Shown piece after piece: positions 58,252 to 63,484 of a stretch of DNA of 64,000 nucleotides. Both the position numbers and the translations under genes were made by a program. Origin of the DNA: a virus (lineage: Duplodnaviria > Caudoviricetes); the IMG/VR virus record IMGVR_UViG_3300010356_002872, positions 1 to 64,000 of that record, one strand, 5' to 3'. Under the pieces are notes generated by a model. That model ran no database searches and had not been told where the DNA came from. It saw only the letters and a list, made by a program, of their open reading frames with translations. Within the stretch, counting starts at the first letter, position 1. Each line of letters begins with the position of its first letter.

Positions 58252-59494
58252 AAACAAAAAAGAAAGATACAAGGTTGTGTGGTTTAAAGTAGCAGGCTAT
58301 AACATAGAGGGTATGGTAACAAAGGAACACAAGGGATGGGTGACCATCAAGACGTTTATAAGCGGTAACCTCTACCGACGTAAAAAGAAGAATGTGATGA
58401 CCCGCTCACAGTTTGAAAGCTATCAGCTAAGGAGCGGACTAAATAGGAGGGAGTACGTGTGGTAGACAAAAAGGGTACTATACCGGTAAACGTGGCATCG
58501 ATGGTTTCATGGCTTAAGCAGCAGCCAGAGGGGACATTTCTTCAGGTTATTAACGTTCAGGTGGAAGGGGTTTCGTTTCTGTGGAACAAAGCAACAAACC
58601 AAACATACCTCGTCCACGAAAAGAAGGAAGACTCATCCGATTTGAAGAAATCAGATCTTTGATCCGAGAGAAAAAGATCGAGTGGATGAAGGACGGGGAG
58701 AAAGCTTACATGCATGGAGACCCTCGTCAGCAGAACTTTTATGACGGGGCAGTCTTTGCAATGGAGGAACTCCTCCTTGAAATTAAAGAGAGGTATGGTG
58801 AATCATGATCAGGATTTTTTTACTGTGCCTTGTGGCCTCTTCTTGTAGCGATAACTTGGAGAGGTACCTCATCTCTACGGAGTTCAAAAGAGTTTGTATC
58901 AGTGGTGTTACTTATCTTGTTTTCCAGCGCGGTGTTACAGTGCAGTACGACCGCAATGGTTCTGTCTTAAAATGCAGTACAGCACAGGAGAAAAAGTTAG
59001 GTGAGGAGATATACAAGGAATTTGGTGGCGAAGGTGGGAGAGATCAGCGAAGACGTTAGCCCTATGGGAATGACCATGATCGCTATAGGGGTGTTGATTC
59101 TTTATTCGTACTTCTACTATGGGATGAAAGCAGGACTGTGATGGTTATAGAGAACTTTCTTAAAGAAAATGGGTACCGCCTATTTAAAGACCATCCCTAC
59201 GGGGTCAGGATTAAAGACAAGCTAGACCTATTCCAAAAGTTCTATGACCTCCCGGAGGGGAGGTTTTTTATTAACATCTGGAAGTTTGACAATAGGCCTC
59301 TTCTCTCAAGGGGTATGGTCGCAGATCCTTTTGTCTTTCAGATAGAGATTAACTTCGAGCTGAGTGACAGCAAGAACGCAGAGATTAAGTTTTATTCCTT
59401 TTCAGGAGCTGACCTTCTTAGCAAGCTTGATGACTATGAAGTACAGTGTCTTAAACTTTGGAAACTTTTAAATGGTGTAGGAGAAAAAGTATGA
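58244..59494 (+). CDS. Run of small hypothetical genes (58244-58465, 58459-58662, ~58659-58808, 58805-59059 lipoprotein-like, 59138-59494)
   Basis: Coupled ORFs; ASSC lipobox-like in the ORF at 58805. Confidence 0.5.
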
Positions 59495-59604
59495 GTCTTC
59501 AGGTACTACGAGAGCTACCTCCATCTTTGATCGCTTTTATTGGCTTTGTCATAGGAGTGGTCACAGGTTTTTTAGTTCATGTCATCGTGGAGAAACTCGA
59601 ATAG
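59491..59604 (+). CDS. Small single-TM protein (37 aa)
   Basis: Not in the track; AGGAG RBS, ATGA overlap. Confidence 0.5.
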   Translation: MSLQVLRELPPSLIAFIGFVIGVVTGFLVHVIVEKLE

Positions 59605-59701
59605 TTTACACGTCTTTCTTCCTTCTATCAGGAGTGGCCTTGGGGTACATGGCTGGTCCTTTTATTTACGAACTATTTATTAGAGTCTTAGGAGACATAA
59701 G

Positions 59702-61285
59702 ATGAATCAGTATCTAGACTTGTTGGAATATATTCTAAAAGACGGCGAGAGACGAGAAAACCGCACGGGGATCGATACCATTGGGATCTTTGGGGCGCAG
59801 ATGAGGTTTGACCTAAGCAAGGGGTTTCCCCTTGTTACGACAAAGAAAGTGTTTTGGAAAGGTGTGGTTGAGGAGCTTTTATGGTTCATAAGCGGCTCGA
59901 CAAACGTTAGACCTCTTCAAAATAGAGGCGTCTACTTTTGGGATGAATGGAGTAAAGATGACGGGAGTCTGGGGCCTGTGTATGGGCAGCAGCTCCGGCG
60001 CATCGAACGTATAGAGTTCAAAGAACCGTTGCTCTTTACACCAACGGACCGAGCCGACATCCCAGAGTTCAGTAAAGAGATAGTTATTGACTATAAGAGT
60101 GGCAGCTCTTCCATTCTAGGGCGAGTACTCTCTACTAAAAGCTCCGGCAAAGCCACCGTCATTAAACAGTGTGGGACGAAGTCCAATGGAGGGACGTTTA
60201 TCGTAAAATTCCACGATACAGGAGCAACAAGAGAAGTACCCTACGGACTTTGTAATGAGGCTCTCTCAGACTTTTGGAAACCAACAGTTTGGGGTATTGG
60301 GGTATACGGGGATTATGATACCCAAGACCCTTACTACGATGTCCTCGTTACAACGTGGAGAGATATGATCCGAAGATGCTACTCAAAAGAAACAAAATCG
60401 TATAAATCCTATGGCGGAAAAGGGGTACACGTTTCTCCCCAGTGGCTTGTTTTCTCAAATTTTCAGAGAGATGTGAAAAAAATTCCGGGGTGGGATCTCA
60501 AAAAGTTGTACCCGAGTGAGTACAGTCTAGACAAAGACATGTCGGTGTCTAACCGTTACAGTATTGAAACATGCCGATGGGCAAGTGATGAGGAACAGAG
60601 AGCTAACGGGTGCCAGATAACGCCATTCAGTGCTACGGATCCTGATGGGAACAGGCACAGTTTTTACTCACTTGGTTACTGTGCAAAAACGGGCAATCTC
60701 AACGTTAGTGCAGTCCACCGATGTTTAAACGGATCGCTTCGTTCACATAAGGGGTGGTCTGAATTTTCATATATCTATAGACCACCTAACACTGTACCTA
60801 CCGTGCGAATTGTCGACCAACTCAAAGAGACACTAGCTATGCTCAAGAGTGACCCCACAACTAGGAGGGCCGTAATATCGTTATGGAACCCCGCGCTGAT
60901 CGAAAGAATGGCGTTACCACCATGCCACGGTAACGTAATTCAGTTCTACGTCAGCAAAGGGAAATTATCCTGCCATATGTACCAGAGAAGTGCTGATATG
61001 TTCTTAGGGGTGCCAGTAAATATCGCAAGCTACGCTCTACTAACGCACATGGTAGCCCATGTCACGGGACTTGGCGTGGGTGAGTTTATTCACAGCTTTG
61101 GTGATGCGCACATCTACGTGAACCACTTGGATCAGATAAAGGAACAGATCATAAGAGAGCCTTTCCCTCTACCTGCTGTAGAAATAAACCCTGACAAAAA
61201 AGACATCTTTGATATTGGGTATGACGACATTACGTTGAAAAATTATAAGTTCCACCCACCCATTAAAGGAGAAGTTGCTGTATGA
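59702..61285 (+). CDS. thyA: Thymidylate synthase with an in-frame ~260-aa homing endonuclease insertion
   Basis: RTGIDT, FPLVTTKK, ELLWF, GPVYG, LPPCH, YQRSAD..LGVP.N and GDAHIY.NH motifs. Confidence 0.95.
   Translation: MNQYLDLLEYILKDGERRENRTGIDTIGIFGAQMRFDLSKGFPLVTTKKVFWKGVVEELLWFISGSTNVRPLQNRGVYFWDEWSKDDGSLGPVYGQQLRRIERIEFKEPLLFTPTDRADIPEFSKEIVIDYKSGSSSILGRVLSTKSSGKATVIKQCGTKSNGGTFIVKFHDTGATREVPYGLCNEALSDFWKPTVWGIGVYGDYDTQDPYYDVLVTTWRDMIRRCYSKETKSYKSYGGKGVHVSPQWLVFSNFQRDVKKIPGWDLKKLYPSEYSLDKDMSVSNRYSIETCRWASDEEQRANGCQITPFSATDPDGNRHSFYSLGYCAKTGNLNVSAVHRCLNGSLRSHKGWSEFSYIYRPPNTVPTVRIVDQLKETLAMLKSDPTTRRAVISLWNPALIERMALPPCHGNVIQFYVSKGKLSCHMYQRSADMFLGVPVNIASYALLTHMVAHVTGLGVGEFIHSFGDAHIYVNHLDQIKEQIIREPFPLPAVEINPDKKDIFDIGYDDITLKNYKFHPPIKGEVAV
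60002..60811 (+). mobile_element. HNH-type homing endonuclease plus NUMOD-like DNA-binding module inserted in thyA
   Basis: W..MI.RCY......YGGKG..V...W..F.NF..D......LDKD.....YS..TCRWA....Q..N and F.S....AK......AV..CL.G....HKGW. Confidence 0.75.
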
Positions 61286-61665
61286 AAAATTTTAGTGGGG
61301 ACATCCATGTAGATAGTGGAACTATTCTTATTGGAGACGTCGAGTTACTTAAGTCACTTGGACTCGTCGACCCTAAAGTGACAGGTCGCGTTAAGCCTGG
61401 GGTGTACAGAATACGCCTTGCCGTAGAGTGCTGGAACAACCCCGATATGGACGACATTCTTTTTGCGGATGTCCCTTTTCCATCCGGAGAGGTCTTTATA
61501 GGGGATCCCTGTTACTTCATGCCAAACGATAGGTGGATCACCCTTTTAAAGGAGACAAATCACCTAATGGACCTACCTGTATCAGTTCGTTTGTTCGGTC
61601 CTGGAGGTGACGGGCGATTTCCGTATCGCATGAGCCTTGCGAGGCAGGAAGATGGTAAAAGATAG
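61282..61665 (+). CDS. Hypothetical protein (VDSG / IGDPCY motif)
   Basis: DUF4241-like motifs. Confidence 0.55.
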   Translation: MKNFSGDIHVDSGTILIGDVELLKSLGLVDPKVTGRVKPGVYRIRLAVECWNNPDMDDILFADVPFPSGEVFIGDPCYFMPNDRWITLLKETNHLMDLPVSVRLFGPGGDGRFPYRMSLARQEDGKR

Positions 61666-63484
61666 AACCATTATACATTCTGCCAAGGAGTACGATGAAT
61701 TCCTTGGCGTGGAGGAGCAGATGACAGAAGAAAAGACAGACTACCCCTTAAACTTTTATCAAGCGATAGAAGCAGCGATGGACGGAGCAGTGGTTGAAGA
61801 CATCTATGGTGTAACTATCAGTAGACAGGAAAACCGCTTAGTCTGGGAGAATACGTCGGGAGCTGTAGTCACAAAAAGAGCCACTGCACTGGGATACCGC
61901 ATCCACACACCCGCGCCAAACCCGAAGGTTAAGAGGGCGCAGTACATGGTGTACCAGGAGGGATCTCTTCCACGACCCCTCCCGCATATGTATAAGGACG
62001 ACCAGGAGTTTAAGGAGCACAACCCAACTGTGACTGATTTTGAGCGTATTGAGAGTACAGAGGTGGAGTGTAAGGAATGAGTTACTCAGGAGCTATATTC
62101 TTGTTTTCGTGCGCGCTTCTTATTTTTGTGAGGCATATCCTTCATAAAGATAAGAAGCGCTTACTCGCAGATCTCGACCGTTTAAAACGTTTAAACAAAG
62201 GAGCGAGCATGAATGATGAAAAAAGCTATGTGGATGAAAACGGTGTGCTGCATATCAATCTCGTTAGACACGAAGTAGTTCCACAAGAGATGATACACGT
62301 AACTTTAACGCTGGAAGGGACAGACAGCATGGGCGTAGATGTATCAGGATCATATGCAAGCAACTTTCTAACGAGAGACAAGGACGGCACCCTAGAGCTC
62401 AGAACAGCGTGCTGCAGGTGCTACCCTGATGCTGATGTTGCCACGGAAAAGAATCTTACTGAGCATATAGAGCATCTCAAAGACCTTCTAAAGGAAGCGG
62501 AGGGAGCCTTAGATGAGATTAGGAGCAAGGTCTGAAAGGAGCTGTACGAAGTGCGCCTACTACGGAGAAGAGCATGAGGGTGAATACGGCGGTACACTTG
62601 TCGGGGTGTATTGTCACAAGCCCGGACAAGAGAGGTTTGGAAACCTGAAGACTTTTCCATTTAAAAATAAGAGGCATTGCTTTGTTATAGACTTCTGGCA
62701 CTCAGAGTTCACAGATGAGATAGATGGATCAGAGAAGAGTCTCGATGAGGCGTTTAGGAGGTATAACTTAAAATATCATGACTGATAAACTTTCAGAGAT
62801 TTATTCAGTATTAAAAGATGAATGCCTTGCTTGTTGGGCAATAGAGATCTCGGACATATTTCCAAAATCCTTAAATAGAGAAATCGCAAATAGAGAGCTA
62901 GCGTACTACGGGCACCCTGACTGTCGCTGCAAAGGTGAGAGTGCGAGGAGGCTAAAACTATTTAGGAGTGAACACGACACCAAAGAGCCGAGGGATGACC
63001 AATGATGAAACGACGCCTGTATGGGCTTGTGGCCCTAATGTCTGGGCTGGCCGCGTCTTCTGATATGTTAGATCTTTCGGGAGAAGATCCATCTCCAAGA
63101 GAGAAAACCCCAGAGGAAGTCGAGCGTGAGCGCAGGCTTGGTGAAGAAAAGATGGCTGCCGCTCAGGCCAAGCGAGACAGAAGAGCGGCAAAGCGCCGCA
63201 TTGATAAAGGAGACTAAGGTATGAGATTTTGGGTTAGTTGGTGGACTGCAAATGAGGTTGAAACGCCATTTCAATATTGGGTTTCCGGATTTGACGGTAA
63301 TGATCGCATGTCTTTGTGTGCAGTAATAGATGCGCCAGATAGTAATAAAATTGAAGAAAAACTATCCGAGCTATACCCAGACATGAAGATGAGATTCTGT
63401 GAGGCACGTCCCAGCGATTACGTACCGGGCGACCGGTTTCCGGGGTTCGACCCGCTTATGTGCTCTTTGGGGGAAGAGAAATGA
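61652..63484 (+). CDS. Run of small hypothetical genes (61652-62080, 62077-62535, 62513-62785, 62778-63005, 63002-63217, 63221-63484)
   Basis: Coupled plus-strand ORFs. Confidence 0.5.

What the first reader, a model, noticed from the sequence alone, without database searches (positions are those of the whole stretch)
59702..61285. Homing endonuclease inserted in frame into thymidylate synthase with no intein or intron signature
Seen: ThyA motifs are intact on both sides, but 271 aa lie between GPVYGQQLRR and DQL, where E. coli ThyA has about 10. The insert has a phage HNH-type endonuclease pattern (W..M..RCY, YGG.G..V...W..F.NF, LDKD, YS..TC.W, Q..N) and a NUMOD-like tail. There is no N-terminal C/S nucleophile, no HN-C/S/T end, no stop codon and no evident non-coding group I core. 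Established: phage td/thyA genes are classic homing targets, normally via group I introns, inteins or free-standing endonucleases, and this loop tolerates length variation. Inference: a splicing-free homing element that persists as a permanent domain in a permissive surface loop, giving a bifunctional ThyA-nuclease. This is the best candidate here for an undescribed class of mobile element.
Basis: partly seen in the sequence, partly recalled or inferred. Interest (0 to 1): 0.85.

Follow-up and report, generated by a model that had tools for sequence, protein, structure and literature searches.

The report
Unspliced homing nuclease inside phage ThyA
The only thymidylate synthase gene of this sewage-sludge phage carries a complete homing-endonuclease-like protein in frame in a surface loop, with nothing to splice it out; related phages show the same module moving between thyA genes, so a selfish gene seems to persist by being tolerated inside the enzyme.

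Summary
Window 59702-61285 (+) is one 527-aa ORF: ThyA residues 1-99, a ~271-aa insert, then ThyA 372-527. The insert is a whole free-standing-type endonuclease: a small beta-barrel, an IPA-HNH-like core and an I-HmuI-type DNA-binding tail, joined to ThyA by two short linkers.

No Hint domain, group I intron, hidden alternative-frame ORF or internal start was found. AlphaFold2 gives one confident multidomain protein (pLDDT 96.7) with a complete ThyA fold. It is the phage's only thymidylate synthase.

At least 120 divergent protein clusters carry the cassette in this loop. In cultured relatives it is present or absent between ~96%-identical thyA genes, with a co-conversion tract. It is under purifying selection in the host frame (omega 0.16), and its divergence is uncoupled from ThyA's. 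I read it as a splicing-free, in-frame homing cassette.

Not shown: nuclease activity (the canonical HNH histidine is replaced, D-K-D), ThyA activity, and any RNA or protein data. The closest published cases are the ShiLan and lone LAGLIDADG insertions in actinophage methylases; I found no paper on the ThyA case. This scan has already noted the same element on other DNA (84 notes, at least 64 genomes).

The parts
59690..59694 (+). Shine-Dalgarno-like AGGAG, 7 nt upstream of the thyA ATG. It is the only good ribosome-binding site serving the whole fusion ORF.
   Evidence: Sequence read. No in-frame start with an SD sequence lies near the beginning of the nuclease module.
59702..61285 (+). Whole fusion ORF (527 aa plus stop): ThyA-N, inserted cassette, ThyA-C.
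   Evidence: AlphaFold2 pLDDT 96.7, pTM 0.93.
59702..59998 (+). ThyA N-terminal part (residues 1-99), with R21, E58, Y94 and the YGQQLR motif. The Trp usual in YG.QWR is Leu98 here.
   Evidence: PF00303 profile positions 1-103. Aligns to PDB 6auj residues 9-107.
60002..60094 (+). N-linker of the cassette (residues 101-131). Strand 101-107 pairs with the C-linker; P109 is conserved in 89 of 111 inserts.
   Evidence: Secondary structure; conservation. The free-standing homologue begins only at insert residue 37.
60095..60265 (+). Small SH3/Tudor/KOW-like beta-barrel (residues 132-188). It is present in the long insert class only.
60287..60610 (+). IPA-HNH-like core (residues ~196-303) carrying the invariant W219, R225-C226-Y227, D277-K278-D279 and Y286, with N/Q at 299. 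Predicted beta-beta-alpha at 274-277, 292-295 and 296-303.
60611..60778 (+). I-HmuI-type NUMOD-like helix-turn-helix DNA-binding domain (residues 304-359).
60779..60814 (+). C-linker (residues 360-371). Strand 365-371 leads back into ThyA. The family motif is h-x-R-h-x-x-h before DQL (Arg in 85 of 111; Thr367 here).
60815..61282 (+). ThyA C-terminal part (residues 372-527), with R388-R389, the catalytic C408 (PPCH), R429-S430-D432, N440 and H470-Y472.
   Evidence: PF00303 profile positions 105-266. Invariant columns. Aligns to 6auj residues 115-272.

Best explanation
This is a splicing-free, in-frame homing-endonuclease cassette living inside thyA.

A complete endonuclease of the free-standing phage type sits in the variable 'small-domain' surface loop of ThyA. 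It consists of a beta-barrel, an IPA-HNH-like core and an I-HmuI-type DNA-binding tail. Two short linkers (about 31-36 and 12-18 residues) form an antiparallel stalk joining it to ThyA. It has no promoter, ribosome-binding site, start or stop of its own, so it is transcribed and translated as part of ThyA from the thyA signals.

Shown by computation: the polypeptide is continuous and is predicted to fold as ThyA plus an appended module, and the ThyA part can still form the canonical dimer.

Inferred: ThyA stays active. The embedded module, displayed in two copies on the ThyA dimer, recognises and cuts or nicks insert-less thyA alleles of co-infecting phages near the loop codons. Recombinational repair then copies the cassette together with flanking thyA sequence into the empty allele. 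After fixation the module can decay by in-frame deletions, leaving relic domains.
For: Anatomy:
- One open frame.
- ThyA in two stretches with all catalytic motifs.
- The insert aligns end to end with the free-standing 240-aa gp46 of Bacillus phage Chotacabras, which lies directly upstream of an intact thyA (E 3e-30).
- Core homologous to ICP1 gp59, a founding IPA-HNH gene.

No removal device:
- No Hint family and no Rfam intron.
- Other frames are closed (longest open stretch 53 aa) and there is no internal SD-plus-start.

Fold:
- pLDDT 96.7, pTM 0.93.
- Dimer model: ipSAE 0.72 against a best control of 0.01. The mark was reached by 20 of 30 proteins solved as pairs and 1 of 23 solved as single chains. 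The runs share at least 70% of contacts and pLDDT is at least 80. The interface uses ThyA residues plus the stalk base and none of residues 132-359. Because ThyA dimers are solved, this pass may reflect likeness only.

Necessity: this is the only ThyA-family gene in a genome CheckV rates complete, and there is no ThyX.

Family:
- About 120 of the top 150 representative clusters carry a 110-300 aa insert at this loop.
- W219, R225, C226, Y227, D277, K278, D279 and Y286 are conserved in at least 107 of 111 inserts.

Mobility in relatives:
- Phage 015DV002 has an 810-nt insert that is absent from 015DV004, 000TH008 and 000TH009.
- Their flanks are 98-100% identical except for about 150 bp downstream at 58-76%, a co-conversion tract.
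- The Klebsiella and E. coli jumbo phages show the same kind of pattern.
- For KP13-7 against UE-S1, insert omega is 0.16 (core 0.09) and insert dS is 0.54 against ThyA dS of 1.1-1.7.
- ThyA identity and insert identity are uncorrelated, r = -0.01 over 6105 pairs.
- Insert-less ThyAs are scattered in the ThyA tree.

Decay series: barrel+core+tail (82 clusters), core+tail (39), core only with motifs lost (6).
Against: - No RNA or protein data exist for this phage; only DNA runs were found.
- No close relative of this phage with an empty site was found, so mobility is inferred from other lineages.
- The insert's GC content does not differ from its flanks, so it is not a recent arrival here.
- The Trp usual in YG.QWR is Leu here, so full ThyA activity is not guaranteed.
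- The protein databases list only single-ORF forms, so the 'always in frame' count is conditioned on that.
- The top-150 sample is biased towards insert carriers, and the ThyA tree is poorly resolved.
Confidence: 0.62

Rival explanations
1. Domesticated or inert passenger. The cassette arrived by homing in the past, but in this phage it no longer cuts DNA. Either it is kept as a DNA-binding or scaffolding domain of ThyA (for example tethering dTMP synthesis to replicating DNA), or it is simply tolerated until it decays.
For: - The canonical catalytic His is absent (D-K-D) and no HNH model matches.
- GC content equals that of the flanks.
- No insert-less sister genome or insert-less population variant was seen in three sludge runs.
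- Strong conservation over very divergent hosts could reflect a host-beneficial function.
- Relic inserts show that the module can stay after losing its motifs.
Against: - The same D-K-D core is shared by free-standing genes with homing-type distribution (ICP1 gp59, Chotacabras gp46), so D-K-D is the family's normal state, not a decay product.
- The motifs are invariant in 110 of 111 inserts.
- Relatives show recent transfer: a co-conversion tract, lower dS than the host gene and no co-divergence. A purely host-serving domain would not produce these.
- All three modules, including both DNA-binding parts, are intact here.
Confidence: 0.25
2. The insert is removed or released after translation by a non-canonical route: an unrecognised protein-splicing chemistry, or proteolysis at the linkers. 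That would yield ordinary ThyA (or two associated halves) and a free endonuclease.
For: - Both linkers are conserved as peptide (P109; Arg before DQL), which could mark processing sites.
- Inteins with HNH nucleases exist (10.1101/2025.01.02.630785).
Against: - No Hint family at E<=1.
- No Cys/Ser/Thr at the first insert residue or at the +1 position (D372), and no terminal His-Asn, here or in the aligned phage homologues.
- The linkers are predicted with high confidence as a paired beta-stalk continuous with the ThyA sheet.
- The rest of the insert is fully accounted for by endonuclease modules.
Confidence: 0.05
3. The insert is removed at RNA level, either as a group I intron or another ribozyme whose ORF happens to be open into both exons, or skipped by translational bypassing.
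For: Phage thyA/td genes are classic group I intron hosts (T4 td; established knowledge). Some Bacillus phage thyA loci are annotated with intron-associated endonucleases.
Against: - No Rfam family at E<=10 on either strand.
- The frame is open and conserved as protein across both junctions in over 100 divergent members.
- Omega is 0.16 in the host frame, with 4 synonymous and 0 non-synonymous changes in the C-linker.
- Virtually every residue belongs to a confidently folded protein module, leaving no room for a ~200-nt ribozyme core.
- The insert length in 015DV002 is an exact multiple of three (810 nt).
Confidence: 0.03
4. Assembly chimera or sequencing artefact that joins thyA fragments to an unrelated endonuclease gene.
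For: The genome is a metagenome-assembled viral contig.
Against: - Identical sequence across both junctions in contigs of three runs from three studies.
- The same architecture occurs in completely sequenced cultured phages.
Confidence: 0.01

Closest known systems
IPA-HNH putative homing endonuclease genes (ICP1 gp59, gp115-116, gp209; Barth, Dunham & Seed 2023, PMC10448857)
   Same: The insert core shares the GVG..G, W..M..RCY, LDKD and Y..E.C motifs with ICP1 gp59 (E 6e-5 and 5e-6). It is likewise too divergent for Pfam HNH models, and it associates with nucleotide-metabolism or replication genes of phages.
   Different: IPA-HNH genes are free-standing ORFs with a C-terminal AP2 domain. Here the module has an I-HmuI-type NUMOD-like tail instead, has no start or stop of its own, and is embedded in frame in ThyA. 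The paper does not mention thymidylate synthase.
ShiLan-domain insertion in actinophage DNA methylases (Arsenault, Gosselin & Gogarten 2025, PMC11855218; Gosselin et al. 2023, PMC9957025)
   Same: A homing-type insertion in a phage enzyme gene that keeps the host frame open, has no detectable intein or intron, shows a disjunct distribution, and is proposed to remain in the protein as a tolerated loop.
   Different: In ShiLan the HNH is encoded in a different reading frame, and the host-frame read-through is only a hairpin or loop. Here the nuclease-like module itself is read in the host frame and folds as domains, and the other frames are closed. The host gene and the nuclease family also differ.
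Second (non-intein) LAGLIDADG endonuclease domain in cluster F actinophage methylases (PMC9957025)
   Same: An in-frame homing-endonuclease-type domain inside an enzyme with no splicing domain, predicted to form its own domain beside an intact host fold.
   Different: It is a LAGLIDADG rather than an IPA-HNH-like domain. It was found in nine related methylases, and its divergence tracks the host gene (vertical inheritance). The ThyA cassette occurs in over 100 divergent clusters and does not co-diverge with its host.
I-HmuI (SPO1 DNA-polymerase intron HNH nicking endonuclease, PDB 1u3e)
   Different: I-HmuI is encoded in a group I intron and has a canonical D-H...N HNH site. Here there is no intron, and the core has D-K-D...Q/N.
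mobE-split nrdA of Aeromonas phage Aeh1 ('genes in pieces'; Friedrich et al. 2007, from my own knowledge) and free-standing endonuclease genes next to their target genes
   Same: A homing endonuclease gene invades an essential nucleotide-metabolism gene without an intron or intein, and the host enzyme still works. Chotacabras shows the free-standing arrangement next to thyA.
   Different: There the host gene is split into two polypeptides. Here the host polypeptide stays continuous and carries the endonuclease as a domain.
Lactobacillus casei-type ThyA with a ~50-residue small-domain insert (PDB 1lca and others)
   Same: The same variable loop region of ThyA tolerates extra residues (established knowledge; L. 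casei ThyA hits).
   Different: That insert is short, is not endonuclease-like and is not mobile.

Membership tests
Thymidylate synthase ThyA (PF00303, TIGR03284, NF002497) | Profile match above the curated cut-offs | tested here: met
   PF00303 352 bits against a cut-off of 24.3. NF002497 371.5 against 327, and TIGR03284 350.4 against 108.
Thymidylate synthase ThyA (PF00303, TIGR03284, NF002497) | Catalytic Cys (PPCH) and the dUMP/folate-binding residues R21, E58, Y94, R-R, R-S-D, N, H-Y | tested here: met
   R21, E58, Y94, R388-R389, C408, R429-S430-D432, N440 and H470-Y472 are present and lie in (nearly) invariant columns. Exception: Leu98 stands where most ThyAs have Trp.
Thymidylate synthase ThyA (PF00303, TIGR03284, NF002497) | Complete ThyA fold and homodimer | tested here: met
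Thymidylate synthase ThyA (PF00303, TIGR03284, NF002497) | dUMP to dTMP activity | not testable with these tools
   Needs complementation of a thyA-deficient host or an enzyme assay.
Intein (Hint domain protein splicing) | Hint-domain profile match | tested here: not met
   No Hint or intein Pfam family at E<=1 on the whole protein or at E<=10 on the insert.
Intein (Hint domain protein splicing) | Cys/Ser (or Ala) as first intein residue; terminal His-Asn; Cys/Ser/Thr at +1 | tested here: not met
   The insert starts R100/I101 and ends R-I-V before D372. The junctions of homologues carry no conserved nucleophile either.
Intein (Hint domain protein splicing) | Hint fold formed by the two ends of the insert | tested here: inconclusive
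   The model shows a two-stranded stalk, and no Hint structure is listed among the matches. The insert could not be folded and searched alone.
Group I intron | Covariance-model match to a group I core | tested here: not met
   Rfam 15 scan of 59000-62000, both strands, E<=10: only an irrelevant lncRNA match outside the gene.
Group I intron | Sequence not constrained as host-frame protein | tested here: not met
   The frame is open and conserved as peptide across both junctions. Omega is 0.16 in a related pair.
Group I intron | Spliced RNA | not testable with these tools
   No RNA run holds the sequence.
HNH / beta-beta-alpha-Me nuclease superfamily | Match to HNH profiles (PF01844, PF13392 and others) | tested here: not met
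   The core alone matches 0 Pfam families at E<=10. Only PHROG families labelled 'HNH endonuclease' match.
HNH / beta-beta-alpha-Me nuclease superfamily | Beta-beta-alpha topology with a metal-binding Asn/His in the helix | tested here: inconclusive
HNH / beta-beta-alpha-Me nuclease superfamily | General-base His at the end of strand 1 | tested here: not met
   The position is occupied by the invariant D277-K278-D279 (110 of 111 inserts).
IPA-HNH homing endonuclease genes (PMC10448857) | Homology to the N-terminal domain of ICP1 gp59/gp115/gp209 | tested here: met
   Search of the whole ICP1 record hits gp59 only (E 6e-5). Pairwise BLASTP gives E 5e-6 with shared motifs.
IPA-HNH homing endonuclease genes (PMC10448857) | C-terminal AP2 DNA-binding domain; free-standing ORF | tested here: not met
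   The tail is PF22083 NUMOD-like, not AP2. The module has no start or stop of its own.
I-HmuI NUMOD-like DNA-binding domain (PF22083) | Profile above cut-off and matching fold | tested here: met
ShiLan-type unspliced insertion (PMC11855218) | Host frame stays open, with no intein or intron | tested here: met
ShiLan-type unspliced insertion (PMC11855218) | Endonuclease encoded in an alternative frame within the insertion | tested here: not met
   The longest open stretch in the other five frames of the insert is 53 aa. The nuclease-like module is in the host frame.
Homing element (operational definition) | Presence/absence between near-identical host genes, with co-conversion of flanks | tested here: met
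   Met in relatives: 015DV002 against 015DV004/000TH008/000TH009, and KP13-7/UE-S1 against RaK2/K64-1/Muenster. Not testable in the window's own lineage, because no close relative was found.
Homing element (operational definition) | History of the element incongruent with that of the host gene | tested here: met
   r = -0.01 between ThyA identity and insert identity. Insert dS 0.54 against ThyA dS 1.1-1.7. Ten state changes on the ThyA tree, weakly supported.
Homing element (operational definition) | Site-specific cleavage of the empty allele by the encoded protein | not testable with these tools
   Needs purified protein and insert-less thyA DNA.

The most novel reading that the evidence does not exclude
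These ThyA cassettes may be a distinct, widespread way of life for homing endonucleases. The nuclease would never be separated from its host protein. It would borrow the host gene's expression signals, and through the obligate ThyA homodimer it would gain a ready-made two-headed architecture that could turn a nicking enzyme into a double-strand cutter. It would stay mobile across very divergent thyA genes at two neighbouring loop sites, using a non-canonical D-K-D active site.
Probability: 0.35. Interest if true: 0.8.

Novelty: new variant of a known kind. Interest (0 to 1): 0.62.

Why it matters
Homing endonuclease genes are thought to survive inside essential genes only if an intron or intein removes them, or if they sit between genes or split the gene. 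This would be a well-populated fourth solution: an in-frame domain that is tolerated by the enzyme and still behaves as a mobile element.

Possible consequences:
- It could explain many unexplained 'long' ThyA proteins that databases annotate simply as thymidylate synthase or as HNH endonuclease.
- It offers a natural example of domain insertion into an enzyme loop, of interest for protein engineering.
- It gives tractable cultured pairs for testing: Bacillus phages 015DV002 and 015DV004, and Klebsiella/E. coli jumbo phages with and without the insert.
- It raises the question of whether the IPA-HNH D-K-D core is a real nuclease.

For this particular phage it is one more instance of a recurrent element rather than a unique oddity.

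Tried and rejected
- **Single-sequence AlphaFold2:** useless (pLDDT 34). Refolding with a 150-row alignment solved it.
- **Foldseek against the PDB and BFVD:** swamped by ThyA entries, so uninformative on the insert. The clustered VIA-align search gave the domain matches.
- **phmmer of the insert against PDB sequences:** only chance hits such as streptavidin and lysozyme, E>0.01.
- **Megablast of the gene against cultured phages:** no match.
- **The search for related loci in IMG/VR:** returned mostly insert-less ThyAs at 55-61% identity and no close relative of this phage, so an empty-site comparison for this lineage was impossible.
- **RNA evidence:** no RNA holder listed. Laying the three DNA runs showed no variant and no insert-less joint. 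Because these are contigs, that cannot prove an insert-less form is absent.
- **Hidden alternative-frame ORF (ShiLan model), internal SD-plus-start, internal plus-strand promoter:** none found.
- **Compositional anomaly of the insert:** none.
- **Cassette inside host proteins other than ThyA:** all 29 longer proteins found were ThyA. This was a word-indexed search with limited sensitivity.
- **Neighbouring genes:** no informative PHROG matches.
- **Literature:** six searches found no paper describing the ThyA case. The thymidylate synthase inteins in the actinophage survey are in ThyX (IPR003669) and are true inteins.
Full report
**1. The observation**

Window 59702-61285 (+) is a single 527-aa ORF with no internal stop. 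Pfam finds thymidylate synthase (PF00303, E 2e-105) in two stretches, residues 1-~103 and 367-527, and the I-HmuI NUMOD-like domain (PF22083) at 312-353. No Hint or intein family appears at E<=1. NCBIfam thymidylate-synthase equivalogs pass their own cut-offs despite the interruption. PHROGs match ThyA families and, over residues 140-362, phrog_2081 'HNH endonuclease' (E 6e-51).

An Rfam 15 scan of 59000-62000 at E<=10 finds no group I intron or other relevant RNA. The alignment to a solved ThyA (6auj) stops at R99 and resumes at residue 369, where 6auj has about seven residues.

Contigs of three activated-sludge runs from three studies, one possibly the source, carry the identical sequence over both junctions. 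An assembly chimera is therefore very unlikely.

**2. What the insert is**

Strand 101-107 leaves ThyA and strand 365-371 returns. Between them lie three modules:

The free-standing 240-aa gp46 of Bacillus phage Chotacabras lies directly upstream of an uninterrupted thyA. It aligns over its whole length to insert residues 37-255 (E 3e-30). So the insert is a complete endonuclease gene of the free-standing type, minus start and stop, plus two linkers.

The core is homologous to ICP1 gp59, one of the founding IPA-HNH genes of Barth, Dunham & Seed (PMC10448857). A search of the whole ICP1 record hits only gp59 (E 6e-5), and BLASTP gives 5e-6 with shared W..M..RCY and LDKD motifs. tblastn finds the core-plus-tail module in 603 phage records, mostly as free-standing genes annotated as HNH or HTH homing endonucleases. 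No Pfam model matches the core, even at E<=10.

**3. Is anything there to remove it?**

There is no Hint profile. The first insert residue is not a nucleophile, the +1 residue is D372, and there is no terminal His-Asn. The same holds in the aligned homologues. There is no intron model.

Unlike the published ShiLan element, the other five frames of the insert are closed (longest open stretch 53 aa). No in-frame start with a Shine-Dalgarno sequence lies near the start of the nuclease module, and no plus-strand promoter-like site lies inside. thyA itself has AGGAG 7 nt upstream of its ATG. The module can therefore be made only as part of the ThyA polypeptide.

This gene is the only ThyA-family gene in a 108-kb viral genome that CheckV rates complete, and there is no ThyX. 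The module occurs once in the genome.

A two-copy model of residues 1-500 gave ipSAE 0.72 against a best control of 0.01. The mark was reached by 20 of 30 proteins solved as pairs and by 1 of 23 solved as single chains. The runs share at least 70% of contacts, and pLDDT is at least 80. The interface is the canonical ThyA one (residues 16-35, 386-430, 461-468) plus the base of the stalk, with none of residues 132-359 in it. ThyA dimers are solved many times, so this pass may be memory of those structures. It shows only that the model sees no clash.

**4. How common, and is it mobile?**

An exhaustive HMMER search of 1.84 billion cluster representatives returned, among the best 150, about 120 ThyAs with a 110-300-aa insert at this loop. 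tblastn finds continuous fusion ORFs in cultured phages of Bacillus (015DV002, Kioshi), Klebsiella and E. coli jumbo phages (KP13-7, phiKp_21, UE-S1, ph0011) and Vibrio (D181 and others). They are annotated simply as thymidylate synthase or HNH endonuclease.

Across 111 inserts, W219, R225, C226, Y227, D277, K278, D279 and Y286 are conserved in at least 107, and position 299 is N or Q in 105.

Mobility is visible in relatives:
- *Bacillus pair.* 015DV002 carries an exactly 810-nt insert that is absent from its sister isolates 015DV004, 000TH008 and 000TH009. Their flanks are 98-100% identical, except for the ~150 bp downstream of the insert at 58-76%. That is a co-conversion tract from a divergent donor.
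- *Klebsiella and E. coli jumbo phages.* These show the same kind of presence/absence and flank divergence.
- *Selection and age.* Between KP13-7 and UE-S1 the insert has omega 0.16 (core 0.09; C-linker 4 synonymous and 0 non-synonymous changes). Its dS is 0.54, against 1.1-1.7 for the ThyA parts. It is therefore selected as protein in the host frame and was shared more recently than the genes that carry it.
- *No co-divergence.* Over 6105 pairs, ThyA identity and insert identity are uncorrelated (r = -0.01). Some pairs are 64-68% identical in ThyA but only 26-32% in the insert.
- *Tree.* Insert-less ThyAs are scattered through the ThyA tree (10 changes), although only 2 are forced by well-supported branches and the sample is biased towards carriers.

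The size classes form a decay series: 82 clusters with barrel+core+tail (the window's class), 39 with core+tail, and 6 with the core only, of which 5 have lost both motifs.

**5. Best explanation and what is not shown**

I read the element as a splicing-free, in-frame homing-endonuclease cassette. It is expressed from the thyA signals, displayed on a stalk from the variable small-domain loop, and tolerated by the enzyme. It spreads to empty thyA alleles of co-infecting phages by break repair with co-conversion, and it is later free to decay in frame.

Shown by computation: the continuous frame, the confident two-part fold, the absence of known splicing devices, selection in frame, and recent transfer in relatives.

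Inferred: ThyA activity, nuclease activity, the target site, and continued mobility in this phage.

The main weakness is catalytic. By ungapped alignment with the I-HmuI motif as I remember it, D277-K278 stands where I-HmuI has D74-H75, and Q299 stands where it has N96. So the canonical general-base His is missing. Since the same D-K-D is found in free-standing relatives with homing-type behaviour, it is probably the family's normal state, but no member has been assayed.

Further caveats:
- Leu98 replaces the usual Trp of YG.QWR.
- The insert's GC content equals that of its flanks.
- No RNA data exist.
- No close relative with an empty site was found.

The rivals are a domesticated or inert domain (0.25), non-canonical post-translational removal (0.05), RNA-level removal (0.03) and artefact (0.01).

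**6. Comparison with what is known, and novelty**

The nuclease module is of the IPA-HNH type, but it has an I-HmuI-type tail instead of AP2 and is not free-standing.

The idea of an unspliced homing insertion has precedents in actinophage methylases. In the ShiLan domain the HNH is encoded out of frame and the host-frame product is only a loop (PMC11855218). A second LAGLIDADG domain sits in frame without a splicing domain, but occurs in nine related genes and tracks its host vertically (PMC9957025). Neither paper, nor the IPA-HNH paper, nor the jumbo-phage survey, mentions thymidylate synthase. Six full-text searches found no description of the ThyA case.

The thymidylate synthase inteins of actinophages are in ThyX and are true inteins. 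I therefore class it as a new variant of a known kind (homing endonuclease genes), not as categorically new.

This scan has already noted the same element on other DNA: 84 notes in at least 64 genomes, including decayed relics and a split-gene version. I used those notes as leads to the ShiLan and IPA-HNH papers, and I tested both links myself.

**7. Verdict**

Confidence in the best explanation is 0.62. Interest is 0.62.

Noticed in passing
Proteins P0063, P0099, P0121, P0125: The same cassette family occupies a second site in ThyA, after 'IW.EW' and before 'GELGPVYG.QWR'. That is about 10-15 residues upstream of the window's site, so two neighbouring loops flanking one helix are used.
   Followed up: partly
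L004 2495-4432 (Bacillus phage Chotacabras): A free-standing homologue of the whole insert (gp46, 240 aa) and a small helix-turn-helix gene (gp45) lie directly upstream of an uninterrupted thyA. This looks like the free-standing form of the same element next to its presumed target.
   Followed up: partly
Phage records PP579742/3/5 (KKP_4047/4048/4050) and MW749007 (TimeGriffin), hits H51-H54: thyA is annotated as two thymidylate synthase pieces and spans 1183 nt instead of 885 nt. The ~300-nt interruption is different from the nuclease cassette and may be an ORF-less intron.
   Followed up: no
Phage record ON366411 (Bacillus phage vB_BceH_LY2), hit H4: The thyA region stretches over ~3 kb in four matching pieces and is annotated with an intron-associated endonuclease, an HNH endonuclease and two thymidylate synthase pieces. 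It is apparently a multiply invaded thyA.
   Followed up: no
window 59993-59995 (Leu98 codon): In this phage and its closest fusion relatives, the Trp of the ThyA motif YG.QWR is Leu, Met or Phe. Most insert-bearing ThyAs keep Trp. This may be an adaptation to the neighbouring insert, or a sign of altered folate-site chemistry.
   Followed up: no
window 61282-61285: The thyA stop codon overlaps the ATG of the next ORF (61282-61665, ATGA), which suggests translational coupling with a gene of unknown function.
   Followed up: no
Insert size classes among ThyA fusions: Inserts fall into three classes: 236-300 aa (barrel+core+tail), 161-235 aa (core+tail) and 110-160 aa (core only, motifs mostly lost). 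This looks like an in-frame decay series of the cassette.
   Followed up: partly
L001, record MW419086 59652-60149 (Bacillus phage 015DV002 gp125): The Bacillus phage that carries the thyA cassette also has a free-standing paralogue of the core-plus-tail module elsewhere in its genome, annotated as HNH homing endonuclease.
   Followed up: no
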